This document shows positions 549-51,954 of a DNA stretch of 64,000 bases, in pieces. The notes below the pieces were generated by a model. It saw only the letters and a program-made list of their open reading frames with translations, searched no databases and was not told the origin of the DNA. This DNA comes from Chloroflexota bacterium (GTDB lineage Bacteria > Chloroflexota > Dehalococcoidia > Bin125). Each line of letters opens with the position of its first letter. Position 1 is the stretch's first letter. Made by a program: the position numbers and the translations under genes. The stretch is taken from NCBI GenBank assembly GCA_026705025.1, contig JAPPBN010000045.1:162166-226165 (forward strand), given 5' to 3'.

Positions 549-1802
549 CTACGCGCTGAGGTAGGCGCCGATGTCGGGGCCGCCCTCGGTCAGTACGACG
601 CCCGACTCGGCCAGTGCGGCGGTCTGCTCGGCGGTGATGCCCAGCCACTCATCGAGCACAGCGCAGGTGTCCTGGCCGAACAAGGGCGCGTAGCCGTAGA
701 CCCGGCCTGGAGTGCGCGAGAGCTTGAGCGGGGAGGCGGCCATCGTGACGTCACCGGCGACCGGATGGTGCACGGTCGTGATCATTTCTCTGGCTGCAAT
801 CTGTTCTTGCTGAACGGCCTGGCCGATCGTATTCAGCGGTCCAATCGGGATGTTGTATTGCTCCAGGGTGGTCACCCAGTGGTTGGTCGTCTGTCCGCGC
901 GTGGCCTCGAACAGCAGCGGCTCCAGCTCCGCATGATTCTCAGTTCGCTTGAACGACGTGTCGAAGCGTGGATCACCGACCAGCTCCGGTAGTCCCAACT
1001 CCGCGCAGAACAACTCCCACTGGTTGTCGACGCCCCACGAGAGCGCGACGACCATCCAGCCGTCGGCGGTGGGGAATGCCTGGAACGGCGTTGCAGATGG
1101 ATGCCTGGTGCCCAGCGGGCCGGGCTCCTTGCCGGTTGAAAAGTAGCGCGCGACCGCGTTCTCGAGGATGGAGATCTGGCAATCCAACATGGAAATGTCG
1201 ACCGATTGGCCCATGCCGCTGAGATCGCGTTCGCGAAGCGCCGCGAGGATGCCGATCGCGGTGTAGAAGCCGCCGCAAATGTCCCCGATGGAAGTGCCTG
1301 GTCGTGCGGGAGGTTCGTCCGGATAGCCGGTGATGCTCATGACGCCGCCCATTCCCTGCACGATGATGTCCAGCGCGGGCTTGTTGCGAAGCGGTCCGGT
1401 TTGACCGAACCCGGAGGTGGAGGCAAACACCAGGCGAGGATTGCGTTCGAGCAACGCGTCGGGACCGATGCCGAGCTTGTCCATCACGCCGGGGGTGAAG
1501 TTTTCCATCACGACGTCGGCCTCGTCGACCAGGCGCAGGAAGAGGTTGCGGCCCTCGTCGGAGCGCAAATCAATCGAGATGCTGCGTTTCCCGCGATTAA
1601 CCGACTGGAAGTACATCGACTCGTTGTTGACGAACGGCCCGGTCGTCCGGGCGACGTCGCCATGGGGCGGTCGTTCGACCTTGACGACCTCGGCCCCAAG
1701 GTCGCAGAGGATCATCGCCGCGTACGGTCCGGCCAGCACCCACGTCAGATCGAGAACGCGGATCCCGGCCAGGGGGCCTGGAGGATTCACATTGTTGGTC
1801 AT
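549..1802 (-). CDS. Family III CoA-transferase (CaiB/BaiF family)
   Basis: Translation from MTNNVNPPGPLAGIRVLDLTWVLAGPYAAMILCDLGAEVVKVE... is the typical CaiB/BaiF N-terminal glycine-rich fold. ATG at 1802 preceded by AGGAGC. The longer track ORF start at 1946 is rejected. Confidence 0.85.
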   Translation of the reverse strand: MTNNVNPPGPLAGIRVLDLTWVLAGPYAAMILCDLGAEVVKVERPPHGDVARTTGPFVNNESMYFQSVNRGKRSISIDLRSDEGRNLFLRLVDEADVVMENFTPGVMDKLGIGPDALLERNPRLVFASTSGFGQTGPLRNKPALDIIVQGMGGVMSITGYPDEPPARPGTSIGDICGGFYTAIGILAALRERDLSGMGQSVDISMLDCQISILENAVARYFSTGKEPGPLGTRHPSATPFQAFPTADGWMVVALSWGVDNQWELFCAELGLPELVGDPRFDTSFKRTENHAELEPLLFEATRGQTTNHWVTTLEQYNIPIGPLNTIGQAVQQEQIAAREMITTVHHPVAGDVTMAASPLKLSRTPGRVYGYAPLFGQDTCAVLDEWLGITAEQTAALAESGVVLTEGGPDIGAYLSA

Positions 1803-1810: not shown

Positions 1811-2812
1811 CTAGACGTCTCCGATGCTGGGGTCGGAGAGTTCGATGTCGGTGACGACCCATTCGAGCGGTTCGGCATTGTTCAGGTGGGCGAGATTGAC
1901 GAAAAAGATGTCGGCCGTACGCATGTAAGAGGCGTCGACGTGACACGAGTCGTGGGGAGTGATCTGGCAGTTTGGCAGGTCCCAGAGCGGCGAGTCGGGC
2001 TGCAGCGGCTCGATTGGCGCGACGTCGAGGACTGCCCCGGCGATGGTATTGGATTCGAGCGCGACGGCCAGGGCTTCGTGGTCAAGCACACGGCCGCGAG
2101 CGACGTTGATCAACAGCGAGTGCGACTGCATGGCGGCGATCGCATCTCCATCGATGAGATTGAGCGTTTCGTCGGTCAGTGGGCAGCAGAGGACGACATA
2201 ATCACTGGCTGCGAGCAGCTCATGCAGACGGTCGGGCGAGAAGTGCATATCGAGCGCGTCGCTGTCGGGCATCCGCCGCTTGGTCGCGAGAGTTCTCATG
2301 CCGAAGGCCTTGGCAAGTCTGGCGCACGCCTCTCCGATGCCTCCATACCCAACGATGCCCAGGGTTGCTCCTGCGAGTTCCAGCGATTCAAGCGGCGTCC
2401 AGGCTCGGTCGGCCTGGTTGGCGGCGTGCTGGGGCAATCTCTTGGCGTGACTGAGGATGTAGGCGAAGACGTACTCGGCGATGGTCGAACCGTGGACGCC
2501 CGGGGAGTTGGTGACCGTGGCGCCGGAGTCGAGCAAGTGCGCGAACAGGGAGTGATCGACGCCCGTGCTCGCCGTCTGCATCCACTTTGGCGGCGACGAG
2601 CTCAGCAACTCGACAAACGCGCCAAACGCATCGGGGAGGTAGTACAGGTCCTCGGAGAAGAAGAATGCGTCGAGGCCGGCCGGATCGGCGGACCAAACGC
2701 CCTCTGCGTCCAGCAAGATGATGTTCGCGTCGGGGACGATTTCTGCGAGGCGTGCGCCGGCGCGGTTGTGGAACTCGGTGGTCACCCCGATACGTAGCGA
2801 CGTGCTGGGCAT
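1811..2812 (-). CDS. D-isomer-specific 2-hydroxyacid dehydrogenase (NAD-binding)
   Basis: GxGxxG NAD motif in LGIVGYGGIGEACARLAKAFGM and catalytic region typical of the D-2-hydroxyacid DH family. ATG at 2812 preceded by GGAGG. The N-terminal extension in the track ORF is rejected. Confidence 0.85.
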   Translation of the reverse strand: MPSTSLRIGVTTEFHNRAGARLAEIVPDANIILLDAEGVWSADPAGLDAFFFSEDLYYLPDAFGAFVELLSSSPPKWMQTASTGVDHSLFAHLLDSGATVTNSPGVHGSTIAEYVFAYILSHAKRLPQHAANQADRAWTPLESLELAGATLGIVGYGGIGEACARLAKAFGMRTLATKRRMPDSDALDMHFSPDRLHELLAASDYVVLCCPLTDETLNLIDGDAIAAMQSHSLLINVARGRVLDHEALAVALESNTIAGAVLDVAPIEPLQPDSPLWDLPNCQITPHDSCHVDASYMRTADIFFVNLAHLNNAEPLEWVVTDIELSDPSIGDV

Positions 2813-2876: not shown

Positions 2877-4205
2877 ATGAGCCAGACGCCCAGCCCGCAG
2901 AGACACCTGGCGATGAGGCGCCGCGAGCGCCTTCCGCGAGTGCTGTATTCGAGGCCAATGCGGAGGGTGTTCGCCGGGTGGTGGATCGCCGCCGCAGCGT
3001 CAATGGCGTCATTTGCGGCGGTCACGTTCTTCAATCCTGTGCTGGGCGCGATTACGCCCGAGCTGCAGGCCGAGTACGGCTGGAGCACCGCCTCAATCGC
3101 CTTGACGATGGTGATCGGCGGGATCGGCGGCGGGGTGATCGCGACCTTTGTCGGACCGATTGCTGATCGTCACGGCGCGCGCTGGTTGTTGTTTGGATCG
3201 GTCGGGCTGGTCGCCGGACTGCTCGTGGCGCTGGGCTTCATCTCTGAGCTGTGGCAGTTCCTGCTGTTCTGGGGCGTGGGACGCGGAATCACGGTGGCGG
3301 TGATCGACATCGCGGTGGTCGTGGTGATCGCCAACTGGTTCATTCAACGGCGTGGATCGGCGATGGGGATGACGATGATCGGGACGCGCGGCGGGATGAT
3401 GATCTTTCCGCTCGTGATCTCGGCGGGGTTATGGTTGGGCGGTCTGCGCGAAGCCTTCCTGCTGATGGCGATGCTGGTGTTGCTGGTCGGTTGGCTGCCG
3501 TCGCTGATCCTGCGTCGCCGGCCCGAAGATGTGGGGCTCCGACCGGATGGGCGACGGTCGGGCACCAGGGTCTCGGCGGCGGAGTCAGGGTCGCTGTTGT
3601 CGTCAGATCCGGACTGGACCGTGCGTGAGGCCATGCGCACGCGCGCATTCTGGCTGCTGCTGTTCGGGACGACGATCCTGATGGCGGTCAGCGGGTCCGT
3701 GAACTTCACTTTCGTCTCGCACATGACGCAGAACGGGATCGACGCCGATACGGCGCGGAGCGCACTGGCGTTGTGGGCTGGGATGGGAATCATTGGCGGC
3801 GTGCTTGGTGGCGAGCTTCGGCAACGGCTGGCCGTTCGCTACTCGCTGCCGCTCGTCATCCTGGTGACGACCAGTGCACTGGTCTGGTTTGTGCTCACCG
3901 ACAGCGTCTGGATGGCGTTCGTATTCGCGGTCTGGCACGGCCTCGCCTTCGGCGCGCAGCTGCCGCTCAACCGGATTTCGTTTCCGGACTATTTTGGCCG
4001 CTACTCGGTTGGACGGATCCGTTCGGTCACCGCGCCGCCGCAGTTGTTGATCAATGCGTTCGGGCCGTTCGTGTCGGGCCTGGTGATCGACAGCCGAGGT
4101 TCGTACGACTTGATCTACGTCGTCTTCATCGGCCTGCTCTTGAGCGCCGCGGTCAGCGTGCTGCTGGCGCGTCCACCTGAGGCGCCGGTTCGCACGGGGG
4201 CCTGA
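2877..4205 (+). CDS. MFS transporter
   Basis: About 12 predicted hydrophobic helices with MFS-like loops. The start is ambiguous: ATG candidates at 2877, 2912 and 2958. The track ORF start at 2718 overlaps the upstream gene and is rejected. Confidence 0.8.
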   Translation: MSQTPSPQRHLAMRRRERLPRVLYSRPMRRVFAGWWIAAAASMASFAAVTFFNPVLGAITPELQAEYGWSTASIALTMVIGGIGGGVIATFVGPIADRHGARWLLFGSVGLVAGLLVALGFISELWQFLLFWGVGRGITVAVIDIAVVVVIANWFIQRRGSAMGMTMIGTRGGMMIFPLVISAGLWLGGLREAFLLMAMLVLLVGWLPSLILRRRPEDVGLRPDGRRSGTRVSAAESGSLLSSDPDWTVREAMRTRAFWLLLFGTTILMAVSGSVNFTFVSHMTQNGIDADTARSALALWAGMGIIGGVLGGELRQRLAVRYSLPLVILVTTSALVWFVLTDSVWMAFVFAVWHGLAFGAQLPLNRISFPDYFGRYSVGRIRSVTAPPQLLINAFGPFVSGLVIDSRGSYDLIYVVFIGLLLSAAVSVLLARPPEAPVRTGA

Positions 4206-4275: not shown

Positions 4276-5478
4276 TTATGCGTTTGAGAGGATAATCGTT
4301 CCGGCTGAGGCGAACATGCCGCCGGGGCCGTGGGCCATGCTGACGTTGACGTCGGGCACCTGGCGCTCGCCGCACTCGCCGCGCAGCTGACGGACCGACT
4401 CGACGATGGCGAACATGCCGTACATGCCGGTGTGGCAGTAGGAGAGTCCGCCGCCGTTGGTGTTCATCGGGAAGTCGCCGCCGGGGCCGGACTTGTAGAT
4501 GACCTCGCCGTTGGATCCGGTCCTGGTTTCGGCGAAGAAGGGACCGCCTTCACCCTTGGGCACGAAGCCGAGATCCTCGGCCGCCATCAACGGGGTGAAG
4601 GTGAAGGCGTCGTAGAACATGCAGTGGTCGATGTCCTGCGGACCCAGACCGGCGCTCTTGTAGGCGGCCTCGCCGGCAATCCGGTAGCCGTCGGCGGTTG
4701 TGTGGTCGCGCATTTGCGAGACCATCCAATGGGCCGCCGCCTCGCCCGCGCCCAGCACGTAAACGGGGTCCTTCGCGTAGTCCTTTGCCCGTTCCTCGGA
4801 GACGAGCACGAGCGCGCCGCCGCCGTCGGCGACGACGCAGCAGTCGAGCAGGTTAAACGGGTAGCAGATCATCCGCGAGTTGAGCACGTCCTGCGGCGTG
4901 ATCGGTCCGCCGCCGCGCTCAGGTGCCCGGCGGTGGCTGCCCATCATCGCCATCGGGTTGAGGTTGGCCCAGGCGCGGGTCGCCGCGGCGATGTGGGCGA
5001 GGTGTTCTTTGGTCGTGCCGTACTCGTGGAAGTGGCGCAGGACGGGAATCGAGAAGGTGGTGGGCGCGCCGCCAATGGCGAAGGGCGCCTCGTACTGTCC
5101 GCCCGGCGACGATGCCGAGCCGCCGCGCGGTGCGTCGACTCCGGAGCGTCCGCTCTCACCGTGCGTCACCAGAGCGACATCGCAGTAGCCGGCCATGATC
5201 GCGGCGACGGCGTGGCGGACGTGAATCATGAAGGAGCAGCCGCCGACGGAGGTGCCGTCGATGTAGCGCGGCTGGATGCCGAGATACTCGGCGACCTCGT
5301 TGGGGATAGCGCCGGCGCAGAGCAGACCGTCAACGTCGGCCAGCGAGATACCGGCGTCGTCGAGCGCGTTCTTGGCAGCCTGCGCATGTAGCGCGAGGCG
5401 GGACATATGGGGTAGCTGACCCAGATCATCGGTCTCGGCAGCGCCGACAATGGCGACCTTGTGTCGAATCTGATCCAT
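4276..5478 (-). CDS. Thiolase-like protein, SCP-x / lipid-transfer-protein type (non-specific lipid-transfer protein thiolase domain)
   Basis: 400 aa; thiolase fold with a Cys-containing N-terminal region and C-terminal GGGLSYCHTGMYGMFAIVE thiolase signature. Co-oriented with an adjacent DUF35 gene, the classic pairing. Confidence 0.85.
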   Translation of the reverse strand: MDQIRHKVAIVGAAETDDLGQLPHMSRLALHAQAAKNALDDAGISLADVDGLLCAGAIPNEVAEYLGIQPRYIDGTSVGGCSFMIHVRHAVAAIMAGYCDVALVTHGESGRSGVDAPRGGSASSPGGQYEAPFAIGGAPTTFSIPVLRHFHEYGTTKEHLAHIAAATRAWANLNPMAMMGSHRRAPERGGGPITPQDVLNSRMICYPFNLLDCCVVADGGGALVLVSEERAKDYAKDPVYVLGAGEAAAHWMVSQMRDHTTADGYRIAGEAAYKSAGLGPQDIDHCMFYDAFTFTPLMAAEDLGFVPKGEGGPFFAETRTGSNGEVIYKSGPGGDFPMNTNGGGLSYCHTGMYGMFAIVESVRQLRGECGERQVPDVNVSMAHGPGGMFASAGTIILSNA

Positions 5479-5517
5479 GAGTGATCTCCGTTTCGATTGA
5501 GCCTTGGTTGTCGGCGT

Positions 5518-5934
5518 CTAGACAGGCTTGAATTTGGGCAGCGTGACCTCGTCGGTCACATCGTCGAAGACAATCTCGACATCCATGTCGACGGTGGTCG
5601 AGTAGGGGTCGTCAATGATCAGGTTGGACATCATCCGCGGGCCCTCTTCGAGTTCGATCACGGCGATCACGTACGGAGGCGCGTTGTCCTCGCTGTTGTA
5701 GGGGGGGATCGGTTGGTGCGAGATGACGAAGGTATGCACCTTGCCCTTGCCCGAGGCCTGCATCCACTTGATGTCCCAGTTGAAGCACTTGGGCATGGGA
5801 CAGAACGGTCGCGGGTAGAAGTGCGGGCCGCAGTCGTCGCAGGTGGGCAGCATCAGCTTGTGTTCTTTGAGGCCGTCCCAGTAGGGCTGTGACTCAGGCG
5901 TTGCCACGGGCAGTCTGCCGGCGTAGTCAGCCAT
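5518..5934 (-). CDS. DUF35 family OB-fold/zinc-ribbon protein (thiolase partner)
   Basis: 138 aa. Cys4 rubredoxin-like ribbon CDDCG...CPMPKC followed by an OB-fold segment, as in ChsH2-DUF35/BbsA-type scaffolds. Sits immediately upstream of the SCP-x thiolase on the same strand. Confidence 0.85.
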   Translation of the reverse strand: MADYAGRLPVATPESQPYWDGLKEHKLMLPTCDDCGPHFYPRPFCPMPKCFNWDIKWMQASGKGKVHTFVISHQPIPPYNSEDNAPPYVIAVIELEEGPRMMSNLIIDDPYSTTVDMDVEIVFDDVTDEVTLPKFKPV

Positions 5935-10378: not shown

Positions 10379-10452
<74 letters not shown>

Positions 10453-10473
10453 TGGTGCGCAGGTGCGTTGTTG

Positions 10474-10548
10474 TGGAGCGGAAGAAGGGATTCGAACCCT
10501 CGACCTTCTCCTTGGCAAGGAGACGCGCTACCGCTGCGCCACTTCCGC
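10474..10548 (-). tRNA. tRNA-Gly (GCC)
   Basis: GCGGAAGTGGCGCAGCGGTAGCGCGTCTCCTTGCCAAGGAGAAGGTCGAGGGTTCGAATCCCTTCTTCCGCTCCA: anticodon stem TCTCC/GGAGA, loop TTGCCAA, encoded CCA. Confidence 0.88.
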
Positions 10549-10598
10549 TGGTGGGGACATTGTAACCACCGGGCGGCAATCGGTGGTAGTCCGAGTGT

Positions 10599-10686
10599 TG
10601 GTGCCGAGGAGAGGACTCGAACCTCCACGCCCGCAATGGGCACAGCGCCCTCAACGCTGCGTGTCTACCAGTTCCACCACCTCGGC
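10599..10686 (-). tRNA. tRNA-Leu (GAG), long variable arm
   Basis: 88 nt: GCCGAGGTGGTGGAACTGGTAGACACGCAGCGTTGAGGGCGCTGTGCCCATTGCGGGCGTGGAGGTTCGAGTCCTCTCCTCGGCACCA. Anticodon loop TTGAGGG; class II variable arm. Confidence 0.88.
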
Positions 10687-10704
10687 ATGGCTGGTGGGTT
10701 GCTC

Positions 10705-10781
10705 TGGCAGGGGTGGCAGGACTCGAACCCGCGACCTACGGTTTTGGAGACCGTTGCTCTGCCAAACTGAGCTACACCCCT
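10705..10781 (-). tRNA. tRNA-Trp (CCA)
   Basis: AGGGGTGTAGCTCAGTTTGGCAGAGCAACGGTCTCCAAAACCGTAGGTCGCGGGTTCGAGTCCTGCCACCCCTGCCA: anticodon loop CTCCAAA, T-loop TTCGAGT. Confidence 0.85.
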
Positions 10782-11980: not shown

Positions 11981-12799
11981 ATGCGGAACGAGGATATCGC
12001 CGAGATCTTCAATGCCAGCGGGCGTGATTACGAGTCCTCGGCGAGCGAGCTGATCAATCTGTCCGCTTCGATGCTGGTCGAGCGGTTGCAGCTGTCGGCC
12101 AGCGACGACCTGGTTGACCTGGGCTGTGGCAGCGGCGCGCTGATTTCCCACTCCGAGCAGCGACTGACCAACGGGAGCGCGATCGGAATCGATTTGTCTC
12201 GCGTCCAGTTGGAACTGGCACGTGAGCGGTTCAGGCTGTCGCCGCTGGAACCGCGCTTCATCCAGGAAGACGCCTCGGCCAGCAGCCTGGACAATCGGTC
12301 GGTCGATGCGGTCGGCCTCGGGCTCGTGCTGCCCTACGTCGAGCGACCGCAGCAGTTGTTGAAGGAAGCGACCCGTTTGACGCGGCTCGGAGGTCGCGTC
12401 GCAGCTACCGTGATCGGCGCGCCATTCTTCGGAGCGCCGGGGACCCGATTTCTCGGTCTGCTGGAACGCCGCGGCGTCGCCTGGCCCGAAGTGGAGCTGC
12501 AGTTTGATCCTCGAGAGGCCGTCCGGCTTGCCCTGCTCTGCGACGTTGATGGCCGTCGCCTGGACGACGTCACGATTGAAGAGATCGAGCGGGAGTTCTG
12601 GTGGGACAGTTTCGACGAGTGGTGGCGAATGTTGCGGTTGTTCGGGTTTCTTCCCATTGGCCGTGACCGGGCGCTGGATGGGATCGCGCGAGATCTGCGC
12701 GAGGATGATCGCGTCGTCGATCCTGACGGCAAAGTCCGCTGCGCCGTCAAAATCTGGTTGCTTTCGGCGACTGTGAGTGAAGGAGATCCGTGGGTATGA
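11981..12799 (+). CDS. Class I SAM-dependent methyltransferase
   Basis: Motif I VDLGCGSGAL plus acidic motif II and post-I residues; 272 aa. Confidence 0.75.
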   Translation: MRNEDIAEIFNASGRDYESSASELINLSASMLVERLQLSASDDLVDLGCGSGALISHSEQRLTNGSAIGIDLSRVQLELARERFRLSPLEPRFIQEDASASSLDNRSVDAVGLGLVLPYVERPQQLLKEATRLTRLGGRVAATVIGAPFFGAPGTRFLGLLERRGVAWPEVELQFDPREAVRLALLCDVDGRRLDDVTIEEIEREFWWDSFDEWWRMLRLFGFLPIGRDRALDGIARDLREDDRVVDPDGKVRCAVKIWLLSATVSEGDPWV

Positions 12800-13806
12800 G
12801 TGCAGCCAAACGACGAATCTCCGTGAACCTGCCCTGGAATCCCGACTTCGTCGACACATTTGTCGCCCGAGCGCGACTCGCCGATGAGATCGGCGTCGAC
12901 ACGATCAGCGTGCTTGAGGGCTACGGACACGACGCCTTCACCGGCATGGCGCTCCTGGCTTACGAAACCGAGAAGGTGCGTATCGCGTCGGCGATTGTCA
13001 ACGTCTTCTCTCGTACTCCGGCGACCCTCGCTCAGAGCTTCGGCACGGTGGACCAGCTGTCAGGCGGACGGGTTGTGGTCGGGCTGGGCGCGAGCGCGCC
13101 GGGAGCGATTGAACGCTTCCACGGGGTCAAGTTCGAGCGTCCGTTTGCGCGGATTCAGGAGACGGTCGAGCTGATCCGCCTGTACTGGTCGCGCGAGCGA
13201 TTCAGTTACGAGGGTCCCACAATCCAGGTGGAGCGGGCCCTGGTCAGCGGCATGATTCCGGCCCAGCCGACTGCGCAGATCCATCTGGCAACCCTTAATC
13301 CCACGTCGGTGAAGATGACTGCTGAGATCGCCGACGGCTGGATGCCGACCTGGATTCCCAACGATCGCGTGGGGGAATCTGTTGCCCAGGTCAAGCAGTG
13401 GTCGGTTGAGGCCGGCCGTCCGGCAGACGCCGTGGAAGCACGATCTCCTGGATCGGCAACCGTGTTACTCGACTCCGATCGGCAGGGTGAGATCGACCGA
13501 GGTTTCGCCCAGGGACTGGCGTTTTTCGCCGTCAGAAACGGTCCCGGATACTTCCACCAGTTCGAGCGTCAGGGCTTCGCCGAGGAGGTGGCGGCGATGC
13601 GTGAGGCGTGGCAGTCGGACGGCGTTGGCGCGGCGACCGAGATTGCGATGGAGATTGCGCCGAGGTTCTCGAAGCGGGGATCGCTGGAAGCTTGCGCCGC
13701 GCATCTTGATGAGCAATCGACGCTCGGCGTCGACCTGCACCAGGTGTCGATCGACACAGACGACGATCAGCGCTGGGCGGACGCTCTCGCCGACCTGGTC
13801 GGCTAA
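12796..13806 (+). CDS. LLM-class (luciferase-like) flavin/F420-dependent oxidoreductase
   Basis: TIM-barrel LLM pattern (…VDTISVLEGYGHDAFTGMALLAYETEKVRIASAIVNV…). ATG at 12796 overlaps the upstream stop (ATGA) and is preceded by AGGAG. Confidence 0.8.
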   Translation: MSAAKRRISVNLPWNPDFVDTFVARARLADEIGVDTISVLEGYGHDAFTGMALLAYETEKVRIASAIVNVFSRTPATLAQSFGTVDQLSGGRVVVGLGASAPGAIERFHGVKFERPFARIQETVELIRLYWSRERFSYEGPTIQVERALVSGMIPAQPTAQIHLATLNPTSVKMTAEIADGWMPTWIPNDRVGESVAQVKQWSVEAGRPADAVEARSPGSATVLLDSDRQGEIDRGFAQGLAFFAVRNGPGYFHQFERQGFAEEVAAMREAWQSDGVGAATEIAMEIAPRFSKRGSLEACAAHLDEQSTLGVDLHQVSIDTDDDQRWADALADLVG

Positions 13807-13893: not shown

Positions 13894-14424
13894 ATGGCAG
13901 ATACGAATCTGGCCGCTGCGCTGGCGAAGTTTACCGACCGCGTGCTGCGCTGGACGGCGCAGTCGATGGAGGACCTGAGTCAGGACGAGGTCCATTTCCG
14001 CACCTACGACGGACAGAACTGCATCGGGTTCGAGGCCTGGCACATCGCCCGCACCGCCGACAACCTGATCCACTTCGCCTTCGAGCGCGAACAACCGATC
14101 TGGATGTCTAGGAACCTGTTTGAGGAGTGGGGCCTGCCCAAGGTCGACCAGGGCACAGGCACCAGCTTTGACGAAGTATCCAGCTGGGTCTTCCCAGACG
14201 GAGCAACGATCGCCGGCTATCTGAACGATGTCGCCGACGTGATCGTGCCGCGCATCGCCGACATGACGCCCGAGTACCTCGACTCGATCACCCGTATCGT
14301 GCCGCAGGGCGAGCTGCCCAAGTGGGAGATCATCGGCCAGGTGATCATCAACCACTCGAACAACCACCTGGGGCAGATCAACGTGGGCCGCTCCATGCAG
14401 GGCAAAGAGGGACTCGGCTTCTAG
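13894..14424 (+). CDS. DinB/DinB_2 superfamily protein (four-helix-bundle metalloenzyme-like)
   Basis: 176 aa. The region …WHIARTADNLIHF… and C-terminal …NHSNNHLGQINVG… resemble the DinB_2 / mycothiol-dependent isomerase N-terminal-like family. Preceded by GAAGGGA. Confidence 0.7.
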   Translation: MADTNLAAALAKFTDRVLRWTAQSMEDLSQDEVHFRTYDGQNCIGFEAWHIARTADNLIHFAFEREQPIWMSRNLFEEWGLPKVDQGTGTSFDEVSSWVFPDGATIAGYLNDVADVIVPRIADMTPEYLDSITRIVPQGELPKWEIIGQVIINHSNNHLGQINVGRSMQGKEGLGF

Positions 14425-17097: not shown

Positions 17098-17172
17098 TGG
17101 TCCCCCCGGAAGGATTCGAACCTCCGCGCGCGGTTTAGGAAACCGGTGCTCTATCCCCTGAGCTACGGGGGG
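17098..17172 (-). tRNA. tRNA-Arg (CCT), C1-G72 acceptor
   Basis: CCCCCCGTAGCTCAGGGGATAGAGCACCGGTTTCCTAAACCGCGCGCGGAGGTTCGAATCCTTCCGGGGGGACCA: D-arm GCTC/GAGC, anticodon loop TTCCTAA, T-loop TTCGAAT. One mismatch in the anticodon stem, hence lower confidence. Confidence 0.72.
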
Positions 17173-30202: not shown

Positions 30203-30233
30203 ACAATGACAGGTTGCGGCCGGATGGTGGATC

Positions 30234-35098: not shown

Positions 35099-37579
35099 AT
35101 GGCAAGTGAGGCGTCGGACACCCTGCTGGGCGGAGTGCGTGTGATTGATCTGGCGACATCACGGGCCGAGATGACAGGGCGTGTGCTCGCCGACATGGGA
35201 GCAGAGGTGATCAAGGTTGAGCCGCCCTGGGGGACGCCCTCACGCCAGTTAGCCCCATTCAGCGAAGAGGATCCAGAGCGTTCGCTCTACTGGGCGGCTA
35301 TGGGGCTGGGCAAGCGCAGCGTGATCATCGACCTGGACGACGAACAGGGCCGCGCCGGTTTCCGAGCCTTGCTTGGCACTGCCGACGTGCTGATCGAGTC
35401 GTTTGACCCGGGGACGATGGCCGGCTGGGGATTGAGCTACGACGACGTCAAGGATGCCCATCCGGACCTGATCTATGTCTCGGTCACGCCGTACGGCCAG
35501 GACGGTCCTCATGCAGACCGGCCGGCGACGGACCTGACCATCGAGTCGGCCGGGGGCCTGGTCGGTCTACAGGGCGACGGCGATCGTCCGCCGGTGCCGG
35601 TGGGTCTTCCTCAGGCTCCGATTCATGCGGGCGTTCAGGCCGCGGCGGACACGTCGATTGCGCTGCGTGAGCGAGGCCTGTCCGGCCTGGGACAGCATCT
35701 GGACGTGTCGATGCAGGCTGCCGTGGTCTGGACCCTGATGCACGCAACAGGGTTCCCGCCAAACACCGGGGACGATCCGCCGGGCACCTGCGCTCAGCGG
35801 AACATCGGCGGCGACAACATGGGTGGCGCAGTCATGGGGATACATCCCTGTCTCGACGGCTACATCGTGTTCAGCATCGTGCCGGGTGGGCTGGGGCTGC
35901 GGCACTCGACATTGGTCCTGAAGTGGATCGAGGAAGAGGGCGAGCTGATCGGTGAGCTTGAGGGCGCCGACATCGATGAGTGGGCGAAGAATGTCGCTCG
36001 GCTGGTGACGGAGGATCCGGCCGAAGTGGGCCGGCAGGTTCTGATCGCGTCCGACAACATGCATCAGTTCGTCGCCAAGCGGACGATGGCGGAGTGTTTC
36101 TCGCGGGCCGTCCGAGACGGCTTCATGATGGCGCCGCTCTACACGATGGAGGACATTGCCAACGATCAGCACCTGGCTGCTCGGAACTACTGGGTAGACA
36201 TTGACGGGCACCGGTACCCGGGGCCGTTCGCCAAGCTGTCCGAGACCCCCCTGGTGATAGATCGGGCGGCGCCGGCGCTCGGTCAGGACCAACATCTGCT
36301 GACGGAGCTGAACGGCGCTCCGAAACGCGCACGGCGGGCGCCGGTGTCGTCCAACGGCGTGCGCGGTGAAGACGGCGGCGCGCTTTCAGGCGTCAAGATC
36401 GCCGACTTCGCCTGGGTTGGTGTCGGTCCGCTGATCTCGAAGTCGATGGCGGACCACGGCGCGCAGGTGATTCACATCGAGTCGGCGACGCGTCCCGACG
36501 TACTGCGTCTTGGGCCTCCGTTCAAGGACAATGAACCGGGCATGGACCGGGCGCAGTTCATGGCCAACTTCAACTCGTCGAAGCTCGGTGTCGCCTTGCG
36601 GCTCGATACCAGGGAGGGGCTGGAGTACGCCCGGCAGTTGATCGACTGGGCCGATGTGGTGGTCGAGTCGTTCACGCCGGGCACGATGAAGCGGTTCGGA
36701 TTCGACTACGCCACATTGAGCAACGAACGTCCTGAGCTGATCATGCTTAGCACCTGCCTGCGCGGGCAGACCGGACCCGAATCGAGCTACCCGGGATTCG
36801 GTCTGCAGGGGGCCTGCCTCTCCGGCCTGCACCGAATCACCGGTTGGCCCGATCGGCAACCATCGGGGACCTGGGGTGCGTACACCGACTTCATCAACCC
36901 GCGCTTCGGCTCTGGTGCGCTGGCGGCCGCGATCCGTTATCGGGACCGAACCGGCCGAGGCCAGTACATCGATCTGGCACAGACCGAGGCCGGTATCCAC
37001 TTCGCCGCGCCACTGCTGCTCGACTACCTGGAGAACGGCCGGATCGCCGAAGCGGTCGGACATGGATCCATGTACGCGGCGCCGAATGGCGTCTTCCGGG
37101 TGGGCGACGGCGAGCGCTACGTCGCGATCGCGACAGAGACGGCGGAGCAGTGGCATGCGCTGAGAACCGCGACCGGCCTTGAGAACTGGTCGGGCTCGGA
37201 GTACGACGACCTGTCGGCGAGAATCGCCGCGAAGGCAGAGATTGAAGCCGTGATTGCCGAGTGGTGCGCCCCGCAGACGGCTGAGGCGGTGGTCGAGCGG
37301 CTGACCGCGGCCGGAGTGCCCGCGTCGCTCGTCGAGTGGCCGTCCGACCTCTACGAGGATCCGCAACTCACGCATCGTGATTTCTTCGTCACGCTCGACC
37401 ACTCGGTGATGGGGCCGACGCCGTACGACGGACTGGTCACCCGCTTCTCGGGAGGGACGGCGCGTCTGCGCCGTGCCGCGCCGGCGATTGGCGAGCACAC
37501 GCACTATGTGCTCTCGGAGATCCTGTCCGTGCCGGATGAGGAGATCACGGAGGCGTTGGTCGCCGGGGCTCTGCAGTAG
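35099..37579 (+). CDS. Tandem-fused double family III CoA-transferase (two CaiB/BaiF domains in one 827-aa chain)
   Basis: First CaiB domain MASEASDTLLGGVRVIDLATSRAEMTGRVLADMGAEVIKVEPP…; second domain restarts at …LSGVKIADFAWVGVGPLISKSMADHGAQVIHIES…. ATG at 35099; the track start at 35039 is rejected. The antisense ORF 36386..37738 is rejected. Confidence 0.8.
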   Translation: MASEASDTLLGGVRVIDLATSRAEMTGRVLADMGAEVIKVEPPWGTPSRQLAPFSEEDPERSLYWAAMGLGKRSVIIDLDDEQGRAGFRALLGTADVLIESFDPGTMAGWGLSYDDVKDAHPDLIYVSVTPYGQDGPHADRPATDLTIESAGGLVGLQGDGDRPPVPVGLPQAPIHAGVQAAADTSIALRERGLSGLGQHLDVSMQAAVVWTLMHATGFPPNTGDDPPGTCAQRNIGGDNMGGAVMGIHPCLDGYIVFSIVPGGLGLRHSTLVLKWIEEEGELIGELEGADIDEWAKNVARLVTEDPAEVGRQVLIASDNMHQFVAKRTMAECFSRAVRDGFMMAPLYTMEDIANDQHLAARNYWVDIDGHRYPGPFAKLSETPLVIDRAAPALGQDQHLLTELNGAPKRARRAPVSSNGVRGEDGGALSGVKIADFAWVGVGPLISKSMADHGAQVIHIESATRPDVLRLGPPFKDNEPGMDRAQFMANFNSSKLGVALRLDTREGLEYARQLIDWADVVVESFTPGTMKRFGFDYATLSNERPELIMLSTCLRGQTGPESSYPGFGLQGACLSGLHRITGWPDRQPSGTWGAYTDFINPRFGSGALAAAIRYRDRTGRGQYIDLAQTEAGIHFAAPLLLDYLENGRIAEAVGHGSMYAAPNGVFRVGDGERYVAIATETAEQWHALRTATGLENWSGSEYDDLSARIAAKAEIEAVIAEWCAPQTAEAVVERLTAAGVPASLVEWPSDLYEDPQLTHRDFFVTLDHSVMGPTPYDGLVTRFSGGTARLRRAAPAIGEHTHYVLSEILSVPDEEITEALVAGALQ

Positions 37580-37919: not shown

Positions 37920-39101
37920 ATGGGCAACCGCACGATGCGCGGCGAAGTGGCGATCATCGGCGTCGGTGAGACGACGTATTACAAGCGGGGACGATCACCC
38001 GATTCCGAATTCAAGCTGGTGATCGAGGCGATCCTCAAGGCCAGCGCCGACGCTGGAATCGACCCGCGTGAGATTGACGGCTTTGCCTCGTACTCCAACG
38101 ACCGCAATGACCCCTCGCGGATTGCGGCGGCGCTGGACATCGCGGACCTGCGCTTCTCCAACATGGAGTGGGGCGGCGGCGGTGGCGGCGGCTCAGCGGC
38201 CTGCGCTCACGCCGCTTCAGCAGTCGCCACTGGTCTCGCCGACACAGTGGTTGTCTTCCGAGGTCTGGCGCAGGGTCAGTTTGGACGTTTCGGGCAGGGC
38301 GCTCGCGTGCCGTACGTGCGCGGCGACCAGGCCTATACGGCGCCGTACGGACTGATGTCGCCGGCGCAGTCCTTCGCCATGCGCGTCCACCGGCTGTACG
38401 AGGACCACGGGATCACTCAGGACACGCTCAAGGCGTGCTCACTGGCGTCGTACCACCACGCACAGAACAACCCGCGCGCGGTGATGTATGGTCGTCCGCT
38501 GACTCCCGAGGACTACGACGCCTCGCGCTGGATCGTGGAGCCCTTCCACCTATTTGACTGCTGCCAGGAGAACGACGGCGCAGCGGCGATGATCTTCGTC
38601 TCGGCCGACCGGGCCAAGGATTACGCCAAGACGCCGGTTTACTTCCTCGGCGGGGCGGTCGGCTCGGGCAACCGCGCCGGCTCGGGTTCGCACAACGCGA
38701 CCGACTACGCCACTTCCAACTTCAAGACGGTCGCGCCGCGCATGTACGACATGGCGCAGGTCAAGCCGGAAGAGGTCGACGTGGCGCAGGTCTACGAGAA
38801 CTTCACCGGCGGTGTCGTGATGAGCATCATCGAGCACGGCCTGACGAGCTACGAAGAGGCCAACGACTTCATTACGTTCGACAACCTGATCGCGCCGAGC
38901 GGCAAGATGCCGATCAACACGAGCGGCGGCAACCTGGCCGAGTGCTACATGCACGGTCTCGAGCTGAACATCGAGGCCGTCCGCCAGGTGCGGGGCGAAT
39001 CCTGCAACCAGGTCGATGACGTCAATGTGTCGCTGGTCGCTTCAGGTCCGATGGTGACGCCGGTGTCCGACATGATCGTCGGTTCAGAGGCGGTGCTCTA
39101 A
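37920..39101 (+). CDS. Thiolase-like protein, SCP-x / lipid-transfer-protein type (second copy)
   Basis: 393 aa; thiolase fold with C-terminal NTSGGNLAECYMHGLE signature. Paralogous to 4276..5478. Immediately followed by a DUF35 gene. Confidence 0.85.
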   Translation: MGNRTMRGEVAIIGVGETTYYKRGRSPDSEFKLVIEAILKASADAGIDPREIDGFASYSNDRNDPSRIAAALDIADLRFSNMEWGGGGGGGSAACAHAASAVATGLADTVVVFRGLAQGQFGRFGQGARVPYVRGDQAYTAPYGLMSPAQSFAMRVHRLYEDHGITQDTLKACSLASYHHAQNNPRAVMYGRPLTPEDYDASRWIVEPFHLFDCCQENDGAAAMIFVSADRAKDYAKTPVYFLGGAVGSGNRAGSGSHNATDYATSNFKTVAPRMYDMAQVKPEEVDVAQVYENFTGGVVMSIIEHGLTSYEEANDFITFDNLIAPSGKMPINTSGGNLAECYMHGLELNIEAVRQVRGESCNQVDDVNVSLVASGPMVTPVSDMIVGSEAVL

Positions 39102-51912: not shown

Positions 51913-51954
51913 GTTCAGTCCTCAGCGGGGTCTGGGCGTTCTCGTTGTTCGATC

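What the first reader, a model, noticed from the sequence alone, without database searches (positions are those of the whole stretch)
4276..5934. Two paralogous SCP-x thiolase + DUF35 gene pairs among CoA-transferase, ACAD-fold and lyase genes: candidate retro-aldol/thiolytic side-chain cleavage modules
Established knowledge: thiolase-like SCP-x proteins paired with DUF35 OB-fold/zinc-ribbon proteins form complexes that cleave C-C bonds of CoA thioesters. Examples are Ltp2 with the ChsH2 DUF35 domain acting as a retro-aldolase in steroid side-chain degradation, and BbsAB benzoylsuccinyl-CoA thiolase. This window has two such pairs (4276-5934 on the minus strand and 37920-39559 on the plus strand). 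It also has four family III CoA-transferase genes (one a double fusion), two acyl-CoA-dehydrogenase-fold proteins that both appear to lack the YEGT catalytic glutamate, a fumarate-lyase superfamily enzyme and a 2-hydroxyacid dehydrogenase. There is no AMP-forming CoA ligase, so activation seems to be by CoA transfer. The substrate (branched/alicyclic acid, steroid-like or aromatic side chain) is unknown and could be a new pathway.
Basis: partly seen in the sequence, partly recalled or inferred. Interest (0 to 1): 0.55.

Follow-up and report, generated by a model that had tools for sequence, protein, structure and literature searches.

The report
Two cysteine-less thiolase-like lyase gene pairs
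Two gene pairs labelled "acetyl-CoA acetyltransferase/thiolase" in a sponge-associated Dehalococcoidia genome encode thiolase-fold proteins that lack the catalytic cysteine, so with their zinc-ribbon partner and neighbouring CoA-transferases they most likely split beta-hydroxyacyl-CoA compounds by a retro-aldol reaction; this is a useful re-annotation of two widespread uncharacterised subfamilies, not a new kind of system.

Summary
Both SCP-x-thiolase + DUF35 pairs are real. They are old paralogs (about 32% identity) from two subfamilies. T1 (4276-5478) groups with the uncharacterised Sphaerobacter protein 4u4e. T2 (37920-39101) groups with the steroid aldolase Ltp2.

Neither has the thiolase nucleophile: Gly80 and Gly88 align with the catalytic Cys of true thiolases. 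T2 keeps both Ltp2 catalytic tyrosines (Tyr292, Tyr343). T1 has Tyr289 in a YDAF motif, as in IpfD, plus thiolase-type His349 and His383. T1's Cys81 sits one residue after the nucleophile position and varies among relatives.

Both DUF35 proteins are closest to the DUF35 domains of the Sal and Ltp2 aldolase complexes. A DUF35 gene lies directly upstream of T1 in 80 of 80 related genomes, and many relatives are DUF35::T1 fusions. The nearest proteobacterial T1 relatives sit in ACAD-MaoC hydratase-DUF35-T1-aldehyde dehydrogenase operons, the Scd/Shy/Sal/Sad logic.

Only two short modules are conserved: DUF35-T1 | MFS | 2-hydroxyacid DH-CoA-transferase, and a fused BbsEF-like CoA-transferase-T2-DUF35. 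The idea of one pathway spanning the window is not supported. The substrates are unknown. Interest is moderate.

The parts
5518..5934 (-). DUF35_1: stand-alone Zn-ribbon (Cys4) + OB-fold subunit, partner of T1
   Evidence: Pfam zf-ChsH2 and OB_ChsH2_C. Sequence. Best PDB relatives are the DUF35 domains of the Sal and Ltp2 aldolase complexes (9myr_B 1.4e-22, 6ok1_B 6e-17). A DUF35 gene lies directly upstream of the T1 homolog in 80 of 80 genome loci. Many homologs are DUF35::thiolase fusions of 550-586 aa.
4276..5478 (-). T1: SCP-x-thiolase-fold protein without the nucleophilic Cys (Gly80; Tyr289 in YDAF; His349; His383); predicted retro-aldolase of the 4u4e subfamily
   Evidence: Pfam Thiolase_C_1. 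PDB 4u4e at 4.6e-124. Multiple alignments. Column counts. AF2 model with pLDDT 80. Foldseek ranking 4u4e > Sal > Ltp2 > thiolases.
2877..4205 (+). MFS transporter, convergent with T1 (start uncertain, 2718-2913); a syntenic member of module 1
   Evidence: Pfam MFS_1. The same position and orientation are seen in Dehalococcoidia loci L010 and L017-L020. Candidate start codons.
1811..2812 (-). D-isomer-specific 2-hydroxyacid dehydrogenase, first gene of a two-gene unit with the CoA-transferase
   Evidence: Pfam 2-Hacid_dh_C 3.3e-53. 49% identical syntenic ortholog in L010. Present in L017-L020. ATG at 2812 preceded by GGAGG.
549..1802 (-). Family III CoA-transferase of module 1 (CoAT_549); nearest named families act on dicarboxylates
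   Evidence: Pfam CoA_transf_3 2.4e-131. NCBIfam hits to CoA:oxalate, succinyl-CoA:mesaconate and succinate-glutarate CoA-transferases, all below cut-off. 70% identical syntenic ortholog in L010, and 38-42% identical to both halves of the double CoA-transferase in the alphaproteobacterial T1 operon.
35099..37579 (+). dCoAT: fusion of two family III CoA-transferase domains. The N half is degenerate (Pro174 in place of the catalytic Asp) and the C half keeps Asp597. The halves resemble the two subunits of benzylsuccinate CoA-transferase.
   Evidence: Pfam, two stretches. PDB: C half to 9fn0_B at 2e-64, N half to 9fn0_A at 4e-43; the alignment to 4ed9 shows Asp177 opposite Pro174 and Asp597. The dCoAT-T2-DUF35 order is kept in L001-L006 and L015. 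In L015 the N half is 48% and the C half 62% identical.
37920..39101 (+). T2: Ltp2-type thiolase-fold aldolase candidate (Gly88 at the nucleophile position; Tyr292 in YENF; Tyr343)
   Evidence: Pfam. PDB 6ok1_A (TcLtp2) at 8e-73. Residues invariant in 120 homologs. Multiple alignments. Catalytic roles of the Ltp2 residues from PMC12329534.
39101..39559 (+). DUF35_2: stand-alone Zn-ribbon (Cys4) + OB-fold partner of T2, translationally coupled (ATGA overlap)
   Evidence: Pfam. Sequence. PDB 9myr_B at 3.9e-18 and 6ok1_B at 1.4e-16. The partner gene is conserved in Chloroflexi, Gamma- and Betaproteobacteria and Acidobacteriota.

Best explanation
Each pair encodes a two-subunit enzyme: a thiolase-fold catalytic subunit plus a small zinc-ribbon/OB-fold DUF35 subunit. 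By analogy with the solved complexes, the DUF35 subunit binds the catalytic dimer and shapes its substrate cleft.

Both catalytic subunits have lost the thiolase nucleophile, so they cannot form the acyl-enzyme needed for thiolysis. The most likely reaction is retro-aldol cleavage of a 3-hydroxyacyl-CoA into a carbonyl compound (aldehyde, ketone or 2-oxoacid) plus a short acyl-CoA.

- In T2 the base and acid would be Tyr292 and Tyr343, as in Ltp2.
- In T1 the base would be Tyr289. His349, perhaps with His383 or Cys81, would stabilise or protonate the enolate.

Each pair is coupled to a family III CoA-transferase: CoAT_549 for T1, and the fused BbsEF-like dCoAT for T2. The transferase would load the free acid onto CoA without ATP. 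The acyl-CoA released by the lyase could then be re-used as the CoA donor.

Module 1 also has an MFS importer and a D-2-hydroxyacid dehydrogenase. This fits a hydroxy- or oxo-dicarboxylic acid substrate.

Shown here: the gene content, the missing Cys, the conserved residues, the partner genes and the synteny. Inferred: complex formation, the aldolase reaction, CoA recycling and the substrate class. The two modules are independent. They are part of the expanded organic-acid catabolic repertoire of SAR202-like Dehalococcoidia, not a single pathway.
For: 1. No nucleophile. In L-INS-i alignments with PDB sequences, the catalytic Cys of true thiolases (7yvy and 6esq 'AAC-AS', BbsB 'SAC-SA') aligns with T1 Gly80 and T2 Gly88. 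Ltp2 and Sal have Gly at the same position. The pairwise HMMER alignments agree.

2. Cys81 is not a family feature.
- Among T1 homologs it is Cys 116, Ser 4, Gly 1.
- In 80 genome loci it is Cys 77, Gly 4.
- In the 96 nearest 50%-cluster representatives, position 80 is Gly 90 and Cys 0, while position 81 is Ala 38, Ser 21, Cys 11.
- Tyr289 and His349 are invariant in the close sets.

3. T2 residues. Tyr292 and Tyr343 are invariant or nearly so in 121 sequences. They correspond to the Ltp2 catalytic Tyr294 and Tyr344 (PMC12329534).

4. IpfD. The genetically validated side-chain-removing IpfD also lacks the Cys and carries the same YDAF motif as T1.

5. DUF35 partners. Both are closest to the DUF35 domains of the aldolase complexes. 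The archaeal thiolase DUF35 scores lower, and BbsA is not hit at E <= 0.01.

6. Fold. The T1 model ranks 4u4e > Sal > Ltp2 > thiolases > BbsB.

7. Context of T1. The closest non-Chloroflexi T1 relatives (61-64% identity) lie in operons of MaoC hydratase-DUF35-T1-aldehyde dehydrogenase-SDR-ACAD-double CoA-transferase. An aldehyde dehydrogenase directly after the lyase is the Scd/Shy/Sal/Sad logic. DUF35 is upstream in 80 of 80 loci, and DUF35::T1 fusions exist.

8. Conserved modules. DUF35-T1 | MFS | 2HADH-CoAT recurs in L010 and L017-L020. dCoAT-T2-DUF35 recurs in L015. CoA-transferase-T2-DUF35 recurs in Delftia and Variovorax catabolic clusters.
Against: - There are no biochemical data for either subfamily. 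The nearest structure to T1 (4u4e) has no assigned function.
- T1 keeps two histidines (His349, His383) that the true thiolase BbsB also has and the characterised aldolases lack.
- Cys81 is about 95% conserved among close relatives, so a shifted nucleophile cannot be excluded from sequence alone. The AF2 model places the helix start at Ser82, which does not decide the register.
- In the Bradyrhizobium-type loci an SDR follows T1 directly. The alphaproteobacterial operon also holds a full beta-oxidation set (ACAD, hydratase, SDR), which would equally suit a thiolase.
- The window has no hydratase next to either pair, so the origin of a 3-hydroxyacyl-CoA substrate is unexplained.
- The CoA-transferases next to T2 in different phyla are not orthologous, at about 30% identity.
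Confidence: 0.6

Rival explanations
1. T1, and less plausibly T2, is a genuine DUF35-dependent thiolase like BbsAB. It would cleave a 3-oxoacyl-CoA thiolytically at the end of a modified beta-oxidation, using Cys81 as a nucleophile shifted by one residue and His349/His383 as in BbsB.
For: - Cys81 is conserved in about 95% of close homologs.
- T1 shares His349 and His383 with BbsB.
- An SDR lies directly downstream of T1 homologs in many Bradyrhizobium-type loci, and ACAD + hydratase + SDR occur in L012, L013 and L022.
- The halves of dCoAT have the BbsE/BbsF subunits as their best PDB matches.
Against: - Four independent alignments and two multiple alignments place the canonical Cys on Gly80 without gaps.
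- Position 81 is Ala, Ser or Thr in most of the wider clade, and Gly or Ser in some close orthologs, including one in a MaoC-DUF35-T1 operon.
- The His of the thiolase HD(A/C)F motif is replaced by the aldolase-type Tyr.
- T2 has no Cys anywhere near the site, only a run of glycines.
- The DUF35 partners resemble the aldolase partners, not BbsA.
Confidence: 0.17
2. The pairs act in the synthetic or transfer direction. They would be condensing or acyl-transfer complexes such as the archaeal thiolase/HMG-CoA synthase/DUF35 complex or PhlABC/MucABC.
For: DUF35 proteins scaffold such complexes. 6esq_E and PhlB appear as weaker PDB hits of DUF35_1. PhlC and archaeal thiolases are distant structural neighbours of T1.
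Against: - No HMG-CoA synthase or KAS III-like (PhlA) gene is in the window or in any related locus examined.
- Those systems need the nucleophilic Cys (archaeal Cys85, PhlC Cys88), which is missing here.
- The neighbours are catabolic: transporters, CoA-transferases and oxygenases.
Confidence: 0.06
3. One reading: the two pairs, the CoA-transferases, the two Glu-less ACAD-fold proteins, the ADSL-like lyase and the 2-hydroxyacid dehydrogenase together form one new pathway for a branched, alicyclic, steroid-like or aromatic acid.
For: All these gene types occur within 40 kb. SAR202-type genomes are proposed to degrade alicyclic and sterol-like DOM through CoA-transferases (PMC5395668).
Against: - The genes are interrupted by unrelated housekeeping genes and lie on both strands.
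- Only the two short modules recur in relatives. T2 orthologs elsewhere have entirely different neighbours.
- ACAD2 is a flavin-monooxygenase-type protein.
- No steroid ring-degradation, hydratase or aldehyde dehydrogenase genes are present.
Confidence: 0.08
4. The proteins catalyse some other Cys-independent reaction on CoA esters, for example decarboxylation (as reported weakly for TbSLP), or are largely non-catalytic.
For: Cys-less SCP2-thiolase-like proteins such as TbSLP have no settled function. TbSLP is a structural neighbour of T1.
Against: Active-site residues are strictly conserved across hundreds of sequences. The pairing with DUF35 is obligatory. The operon context with hydratase and aldehyde dehydrogenase points to a defined lyase step.
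Confidence: 0.09

Closest known systems
Ltp2-ChsH2(DUF35) steroid side-chain aldolase (Thermomonospora curvata, PDB 6ok1)
   Same: T2 matches it at 8e-73, about 37-38% identity. It shares Gly at the nucleophile position, the Tyr of the YDHF motif (here YENF) and the second catalytic Tyr (Tyr343). Its partner has the DUF35 fold.
   Different: - The DUF35 partner is a separate protein, not the C-terminal domain of a MaoC hydratase.
- Asn294 replaces His296.
- There are no igr-type neighbours (cyp125, fadE28/29, chsH1/2) and no steroid genes in the window.
- The pair is coupled to a fused family III CoA-transferase.
- T1 has His349 in place of the second Tyr.
Sal-Shy(DUF35) bile-acid aldolase (Comamonas testosteroni, PDB 9myr) and the Scd/Shy/Sal/Sad pathway
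   Same: It is the second-best sequence and fold relative of T1. Both DUF35 proteins have Shy-DUF35 as their best PDB match. Proteobacterial T1 operons have ACAD, MaoC hydratase, DUF35, the T1 lyase and an aldehyde dehydrogenase in the same logic.
   Different: The catalytic Cys304 of Sal (YDCY) is Ala291 in T1 and Asn294 in T2. Sal Gln352 is His349 in T1 and Tyr343 in T2. No hydratase gene is fused or adjacent in the window.
PDB 4u4e, putative thiolase of Sphaerobacter thermophilus (structural genomics, function unknown)
   Same: It is the closest solved relative of T1 (4.6e-124, 51-57% identity, TM about 0.82-0.90). It has the same G-x-S, YDxF, His, His constellation.
   Different: 4u4e has Ser where T1 has Cys81, and YDSF instead of YDAF. 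It has no functional annotation to transfer.
IpfD/IpfE of the ibuprofen pathway (pIBU218, Rhizorhabdus wittichii)
   Same: It is a Cys-less thiolase-like protein plus a DUF35 protein that removes an acyl-CoA side chain. It has the same YDAF motif as T1 and the Ltp2-type Tyr, as in T2. T2 orthologs in Delftia and Variovorax also sit beside Rieske oxygenase genes.
   Different: It is only 30-33% identical to T1 and T2. Activation there is by an AMP-forming ligase (IpfF). There is no ring-hydroxylating dioxygenase in this window.
BbsAB benzoylsuccinyl-CoA thiolase with BbsEF CoA-transferase (anaerobic toluene pathway)
   Same: It combines a thiolase-fold subunit, a Zn-finger DUF35 subunit and a two-subunit family III CoA-transferase. 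The two halves of dCoAT have the two BbsEF subunits as their best PDB matches. T1 shares His349 and His383 with BbsB.
   Different: BbsB has the nucleophilic Cys and HDAF, whereas T1 and T2 have Gly and Tyr. BbsA is not detectably close to either DUF35 protein. No BbsG, BbsH or BbsCD equivalents flank the pairs.

Membership tests
Thiolase (SCP-x/SCP2 or archaeal type) | Nucleophilic Cys in the CxS motif at the N-terminus of helix N-alpha-3 | tested here: not met
   Gly80 (T1) and Gly88 (T2) align with the Cys of 7yvy, 6esq and BbsB. In the 96 nearest representatives the position is Gly 90, Cys 0.
Thiolase (SCP-x/SCP2 or archaeal type) | His of the HD(C/A)F motif and an acid/base Cys (HDCF or CxG) | tested here: not met
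   T1 has YDAF and AHGPGG. T2 has YENF and VASGP.
Thiolase (SCP-x/SCP2 or archaeal type) | Catalytic His of the GHP motif | tested here: inconclusive
   T1 keeps His349, invariant in close homologs. T2 has Tyr343 instead.
Ltp2-type aldolase | Thiolase fold with Gly at the nucleophile position and the catalytic base Tyr (Tyr294 of YDHF) | tested here: met
   T2 Tyr292 and T1 Tyr289 are invariant. Roles taken from PMC12329534.
Ltp2-type aldolase | Second catalytic Tyr (Tyr344, general acid) | tested here: inconclusive
   Met for T2 (Tyr343 in 120 of 121). Not met for T1 (His349).
Ltp2-type aldolase | DUF35 supplied by the C-terminal domain of the MaoC hydratase ChsH2, within the igr-type steroid side-chain operon | tested here: not met
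   Both DUF35 proteins are stand-alone (138 and 152 aa). There are no MaoC, cyp125 or fadE28/29-type genes in the window.
Ltp2-type aldolase | Retro-aldol activity on 17-hydroxy-3-oxo-4-pregnene-20-carboxyl-CoA | not testable with these tools
   Needs an enzyme assay.
Sal-type aldolase | Tyr302/Cys304 dyad in YDCY | tested here: not met
   The Tyr is present, but the Cys is replaced by Ala291 (T1) or Asn294 (T2).
BbsAB-type thiolase system | Cys-containing BbsB plus Zn-finger BbsA, with BbsEF CoA-transferase and BbsG/H/CD beta-oxidation genes | tested here: not met
   There is no Cys. BbsA is not among the PDB hits of either DUF35 protein. Only the CoA-transferase resemblance holds. No hydratase or SDR is in the window.
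Archaeal thiolase/HMG-CoA synthase/DUF35 complex; PhlABC-type acyltransferase | Third subunit (HMG-CoA synthase or KAS III-like PhlA) encoded alongside | tested here: not met
   No such gene is in the window or in any related locus inspected.
DUF35-scaffolded thiolase-fold complex (general) | Adjacent, co-oriented genes for a Thiolase_C_1 protein and a zf-ChsH2 + OB_ChsH2_C protein; physical association | tested here: met
   Adjacency in the window. 80 of 80 loci have DUF35 upstream. Natural fusions exist. The physical complex itself was not tested.

The most novel reading that the evidence does not exclude
The T1/4u4e clade may be a third catalytic class of thiolase-fold retro-aldolase. It has hundreds of genome loci and is currently annotated as acetyl-CoA acetyltransferase. 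Its constellation would be Tyr plus His, Gly at the nucleophile position, and an obligatory DUF35 partner, distinct from Ltp2 (Tyr/Tyr) and Sal (Tyr/Cys). In marine and sponge Dehalococcoidia it would work with a family III CoA-transferase as an ATP-free, CoA-recycling 'transferase + lyase' pair. That pair would cleave imported beta-hydroxy (di)carboxylic acids from dissolved organic matter into a 2-oxoacid or aldehyde plus acetyl-CoA. This would be a thiolase-fold analogue of the malyl-/citramalyl-CoA lyase step.
Probability: 0.25. Interest if true: 0.6.

Novelty: new variant of a known kind. Interest (0 to 1): 0.4.

Why it matters
Public databases call these proteins 'thiolase' or 'acetyl-CoA acetyltransferase'. 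The missing nucleophile shows that label is very likely wrong for two large subfamilies: at least 595 genome loci for T1 alone, and 6,227 proteins at E <= 0.001 for T2.

If they are aldolases, metabolic reconstructions of SAR202-like Dehalococcoidia and many Proteobacteria would change. They would gain an ATP-independent C-C cleavage route for hydroxy-acids and lose spurious acetoacetyl-CoA thiolases.

The T1 residue set (Tyr/His) would also extend the short list of catalytic solutions known for thiolase-fold aldolases, which are of interest as biocatalysts.

It does not by itself reveal a new pathway or substrate.

Tried and rejected
- **DddD.** I asked whether the double CoA-transferase is DddD-like (DMSP lyase/CoA-transferase), as suggested by the SAR202 literature. 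None of its 120 best homologs carries such a name and no sequence test was possible, so the idea was dropped.
- **Double CoA-transferase orthology.** The window's double CoA-transferase is only 26% identical to the alphaproteobacterial one in the T1 operon. The betaproteobacterial CoA-transferases next to T2 are about 30% identical to either half. The association therefore holds at family level only.
- **Plasmid hits of T1.** These are below 52% identity and have the order thiolase->DUF35. They belong to another subfamily and were not used for inference.
- **Promoter and terminator scans** around both pairs gave nothing above the shuffled expectation.
- **Rfam** found only tRNAs.
- **Literature.** A search for SAR202 + CoA transferase + thiolase returned nothing. 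The BbsAB structure paper is not in the library, so BbsB catalytic roles were not taken from it.
- **AF2 secondary structure.** The helix starts at Ser82, which did not decide whether residue 80 or 81 is the elbow position. The decision rests on alignments and on variability of the column.
- **A single integrated pathway** across the window was rejected for lack of conserved synteny.


Full report
**Source and gene map**

The window is about 64% G+C. It comes from a sponge-associated Dehalococcoidia (Chloroflexota) MAG. The T2 protein is encoded on many sponge-metagenome contigs, including GCA_009835345.1. The T1 region is 98% identical to chromosome OZ242948.1, 'MAG: Dehalococcoidia bacterium'.

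I called genes by third-position G+C and scanned essentially every ORF against Pfam. The window is a typical SAR202-like mix. It holds several luciferase-like monooxygenases, two amidases, two DinB proteins, MFS transporters and CaiB-type CoA-transferases. These are interleaved with housekeeping genes:
- sulfite reductase, NAD salvage genes and tRNAs;
- UvrD/PcrA and HU;
- PEP carboxylase, fumarase, malate dehydrogenase and aconitase.

The literature already describes the expansion of CaiB/BaiF transferases, FMN monooxygenases and MFS transporters in SAR202 and its sponge symbionts (PMC5395668, PMC6306507).

**Check of the observation**

Both pairs exist at the stated coordinates.
- Pair 1 (minus strand): DUF35_1 at 5518-5934, then T1 at 4276-5478.
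- Pair 2 (plus strand): T2 at 37920-39101, then DUF35_2 at 39101-39559 with an ATGA overlap.
- Both DUF35 proteins have a four-cysteine zinc ribbon.
- The pairs are only distantly related: 32% identity between T1 and T2, and 31% between the DUF35 proteins. The gene order is opposite in the two pairs.

The accessory claims are mostly right.
- There are three CoA_transf_3 genes carrying four domains, not four genes.
- Both ACAD-fold proteins lack the YEGT glutamate (LGGT and HNPP). ACAD1 also lacks the alternative IVD-type base.
- No AMP-forming ligase was found.
- ACAD2 is closest to 5gj7, nitrososynthases, SfnB and DszC. It is therefore a flavin-monooxygenase-type member of the fold.

**The two subfamilies**

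T1's best solved relative is 4u4e, a structural-genomics 'putative thiolase' from Sphaerobacter (4.6e-124). It is followed by the Sal aldolase (9myr_A), the Ltp2 aldolase (6ok1_A), BbsB and the archaeal thiolases. An AlphaFold model of T1 (pLDDT 80, pTM 0.86) gives the same order by Foldseek: 4u4e, then Sal, Ltp2, archaeal thiolases, TbSLP and BbsB.

T2's best relative is Ltp2 (8e-73), well ahead of all others.

NCBIfam places T1 just below the cut-off of PRK06158. It places T2 nearest PRK07855 'lipid-transfer protein'. Public records call them 'thiolase' and 'acetyl-CoA acetyltransferase'.

**Active sites**

I rebuilt the PDB sequences from the HMMER alignments and aligned them with T1, T2 and their homologs.

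| Protein | Nucleophile site (canonical, +1, +2) | HDxF-type motif | GHP-type position | CxG-type position |
|---|---|---|---|---|
| 7yvy (thiolase) | C-A-S | HDAF | His | Gln |
| 6esq (archaeal thiolase, partial sequence) | C-A-S | HDCF | not covered | not covered |
| BbsB (thiolase, partial sequence) | C-S-A | HDAF | His | His |
| T1 | G80-C81-S82 | Y289-D-A-F | His349 | His383 |
| 4u4e | G-S-S | YDSF | His | His |
| T2 | G88-G-G | Y292-E-N-F | Tyr343 | Ala |
| Ltp2 | G-G-A | YDHF | Tyr344 | Ala in this alignment |
| Sal | G89-A-S | YDCY | Gln352 | Ser |
| IpfD | G-S-T | YDAF | Tyr | Thr |

The catalytic Cys of true thiolases therefore aligns with T1 Gly80 and T2 Gly88, the position where Ltp2 and Sal also have Gly. 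The numbering of Sal Gly89, Tyr302, Gln347 and Gln352 was verified against the printed alignment and PMC12329534.

T1's Cys81 lies one residue after the canonical position. Its variability argues against a catalytic role:
- Cys 116, Ser 4, Gly 1 among 121 homologs;
- Cys 77, Gly 4 in 80 genome loci;
- in the 96 nearest 50%-cluster representatives, the canonical position is Gly 90, Ser 4 and Cys 0, while the +1 position is Ala 38, Ser 21, Cys 11, Thr 7.

That is the pattern of a small packing residue, not a nucleophile.

According to PMC12329534, Ltp2 uses Tyr294 as base and Tyr344 as acid, and Sal uses Tyr302 and Cys304. T2 therefore has the full Ltp2 pair. These residues are invariant or nearly so (120-121 of 121 sequences). 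T1 has the base Tyr, but a thiolase-type His where the acid would be.

IpfD of the ibuprofen plasmid pIBU218 is required for ibuprofen growth. With IpfE it is thought to release propionyl-CoA (PMC9195938). It is also Cys-less and carries the same YDAF motif as T1.

**DUF35 partners and pairing**

Both DUF35 proteins match the DUF35 domains of Shy (9myr_B) and ChsH2 (6ok1_B) best. The archaeal thiolase/HMGCS DUF35 is weaker. PhlB is marginal. BbsA is not detected.

For T1, a genome-wide scan found at least 595 related loci. In the 80 best, a DUF35 gene lies on the same strand upstream of the T1 homolog, about 0.5 kb from the T1 start in 78 of them. Dozens of homologs are single DUF35::thiolase-like polypeptides in the same order. 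This is strong indirect evidence for a physical complex.

For T2, the downstream DUF35 gene is kept in Chloroflexi, Gammaproteobacteria, Acidobacteriota and Betaproteobacteria, with 4-bp overlaps.

**Neighbourhoods**

*Module 1.* In the window's own lineage (L017-L020) and in a 71%-identical Dehalococcoidia relative (L010), the order is DUF35-T1, a convergent MFS transporter, then 2-hydroxyacid dehydrogenase and CoA-transferase. The CoA-transferase is 70% identical, and the dehydrogenase and transporter 49%. The genes upstream of DUF35_1 in the window (SpoU methylase, sulfite reductase) are not conserved.

The closest non-Chloroflexi T1 relatives (61-64% identity: Chelatococcus, other Pseudomonadota) lie in an operon of CoA-transferase | MaoC hydratase-DUF35-T1-aldehyde dehydrogenase-SDR-ACAD-double CoA-transferase. 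ACAD, MaoC hydratase, DUF35, lyase and aldehyde dehydrogenase are the enzyme set of the Scd/Shy/Sal/Sad bile-acid side-chain route. An aldehyde dehydrogenase directly after the lyase is what an aldehyde-releasing aldolase predicts.

More distant T1 relatives (about 52% identity, Bradyrhizobium and allies) have an SDR directly downstream and AMP-ligases nearby. This keeps a thiolase reading alive.

*Module 2.* The double CoA-transferase, T2 and DUF35_2 are adjacent and co-oriented in the window. The same holds in all close contigs and in a 75%-identical relative (L015).
- The C half of the fusion has one subunit of benzylsuccinate CoA-transferase (9fn0_B, 2e-64) as its best PDB match. The N half matches the other subunit (9fn0_A, 4e-43).
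- In the alignment to 4ed9, the catalytic Asp is kept in the C half (Asp597). It is replaced by Pro174 in the N half.
- The N half also evolves faster: 48% against 62% identity in L015.

The fusion is therefore a pseudo-heterodimer with probably one active site.

T2 orthologs at 62% identity occur on Delftia, Variovorax and Cupriavidus replicons. In Delftia and Variovorax the clusters comprise a Rieske oxygenase, its reductase, a FadR regulator, a TTT binding protein, a CoA-transferase, T2, DUF35, an FAD oxidoreductase and a nitroreductase. In Delftia the cluster lies next to IS1071. Those CoA-transferases are not orthologous to dCoAT.

In sponge gammaproteobacteria, the T2 pair sits near a MaoC hydratase and an ADP-forming acyl-CoA synthetase.

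T2-DUF35 thus behaves as a conserved cassette combined with different CoA-activating and oxygenating enzymes.

**Interpretation**

The best-supported reading is that both pairs are DUF35-scaffolded, Cys-less thiolase-fold lyases that cleave 3-hydroxyacyl-CoA esters by a retro-aldol mechanism. Each would be fed by a family III CoA-transferase.

*Shown:* gene presence, loss of the nucleophile, conservation of the aldolase-type Tyr (plus Tyr or His), obligate DUF35 pairing and the two conserved modules.

*Inferred:* the complex, the reaction, recycling of the released acyl-CoA as CoA donor, and the substrate class.

For module 1, three things suggest a hydroxy- or oxo-dicarboxylic acid whose cleavage yields a 2-oxoacid:
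- the nearest named families of the CoA-transferase act on dicarboxylates (oxalate, mesaconate, glutarate; all below cut-off);
- a D-2-hydroxyacid dehydrogenase is in the module;
- an MFS importer is in the module.

This remains speculative. Neither pair has a hydratase next to it in the window, so the substrate may already be a hydroxy-acid, or the hydratase may be encoded elsewhere.

The main rival is that T1 is a real thiolase with Cys81 as a shifted nucleophile. In its favour are the 95% conservation of Cys81 among close relatives, the two BbsB-like histidines and the SDR-containing contexts. Against it are the gapless alignments, the Gly and Ser exceptions, and the Ala/Ser/Thr majority at that position in the wider clade.

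**Comparison with known systems and novelty**

DUF35 + thiolase-like pairs are a known kind (Ltp2, Sal, IpfDE, BbsAB, the archaeal thiolase/HMGCS complex, PhlABC).
- T2 is a new, widespread member of the Ltp2-like branch, about 37-38% identical to TcLtp2. It has a stand-alone DUF35 and a YENF motif.
- T1 belongs to a large uncharacterised branch represented by 4u4e. Its predicted catalytic set (Tyr + His) differs from both characterised aldolase types.

I therefore rate the finding as a new variant of a known kind, of moderate interest. Its practical value is mainly correcting the 'acetyl-CoA acetyltransferase' annotation and pointing to a testable Tyr/His aldolase class. The larger claim of a new multi-gene pathway across the window is not supported.

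Noticed in passing
window 35099-37579: The 826-aa double CoA-transferase is a pseudo-heterodimer. The N half has Pro174 where family III enzymes have the catalytic Asp, and the C half keeps Asp597. The halves best match the two different subunits of benzylsuccinate CoA-transferase (9fn0_A, 9fn0_B). The N half diverges faster in relatives (48% against 62% identity).
   Followed up: partly
window 28988-31382 and 27566-28930: A CoA-transferase (28988-30202) is followed after 32 bp by an ACAD-fold protein lacking both known catalytic-base positions (LGGT in place of YEGT; Arg at the IVD-type site). This recalls CoA-transferase + desulfinase (Act/Acd) pairs, though its NCBIfam score to the desulfinase is far below cut-off. 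An ADSL/XcbD/CMLE-like lyase is transcribed divergently. The arrangement is conserved in close contigs L001-L004.
   Followed up: partly
window 31372-32565: The second 'acyl-CoA dehydrogenase' matches PDB 5gj7/5z8t at 1e-76, and is also related to nitrososynthases, SfnB and DszC. It is an ACAD-fold flavin monooxygenase-type protein, probably mis-annotated as an acyl-CoA dehydrogenase.
   Followed up: partly
window 37580-37919: The spacer between the double CoA-transferase and T2 is 340 bp here but 72-152 bp in relatives (L003, L004, L015). The extra roughly 190 bp is G+C-rich and full of short palindromes and repeats (for example CCCTCTCCC-TCT-GGGAGAGGG). It looks like a small REP/MITE-like insertion, and no second copy occurs in the window.
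   Followed up: partly
L097 (Delftia plasmid NZ_CP065697) and L098 (Variovorax CP063167): T2 orthologs at 62% identity lie in a conserved cluster: Rieske oxygenase, VanB-type reductase, FadR regulator, TTT binding protein, CoA-transferase, T2, DUF35, FAD oxidoreductase and nitroreductase. In Delftia it is next to IS1071 on a conjugative plasmid. It looks like an uncharacterised xenobiotic or aromatic-acid catabolic cassette.
   Followed up: no
L008/L009 (1397-2729) and L016 (2365-3534, 16282-17169): PhyH (phytanoyl-CoA dioxygenase family) genes recur within 8 kb of T2 orthologs in sponge gammaproteobacteria and in an Acidobacteriota MAG. A carboxylesterase, a formyltransferase and an ADP-forming acyl-CoA synthetase also recur in the gammaproteobacterial loci.
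   Followed up: no
window 10382-10781 and 17101-17172: A cluster of four tRNA genes and one further tRNA gene, all on the minus strand. They separate the pair-1 region from the rest of the window.
   Followed up: no
window 39580-42465 and 50524-57005: Central-metabolism genes: PEP carboxylase directly convergent on DUF35_2, then class II fumarase, malate dehydrogenase, aconitase and a carboxyltransferase (propionyl-/acetyl-CoA carboxylase beta type). PEP carboxylase and the S9 peptidase also follow the T2 pair in the 75%-identical relative L015, so this synteny reflects lineage, not function.
   Followed up: partly
window 59739-63376: Hydantoinase B and hydantoinase A genes (oxoprolinase / acetone-carboxylase family), apparently overlapping in the long ORF calls (59739-61523 and 61358-63376). 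The start of the downstream gene needs refining.
   Followed up: no
window 12790-13806, 24868-26205, 47510-48361; 13894-14424, 48432-48968; 14446-15765, 44527-45951: Three luciferase-like monooxygenases, two DinB-family proteins and two amidases, plus an EthD protein (26240-26923). This is the paralog expansion described for SAR202 genomes.
   Followed up: no
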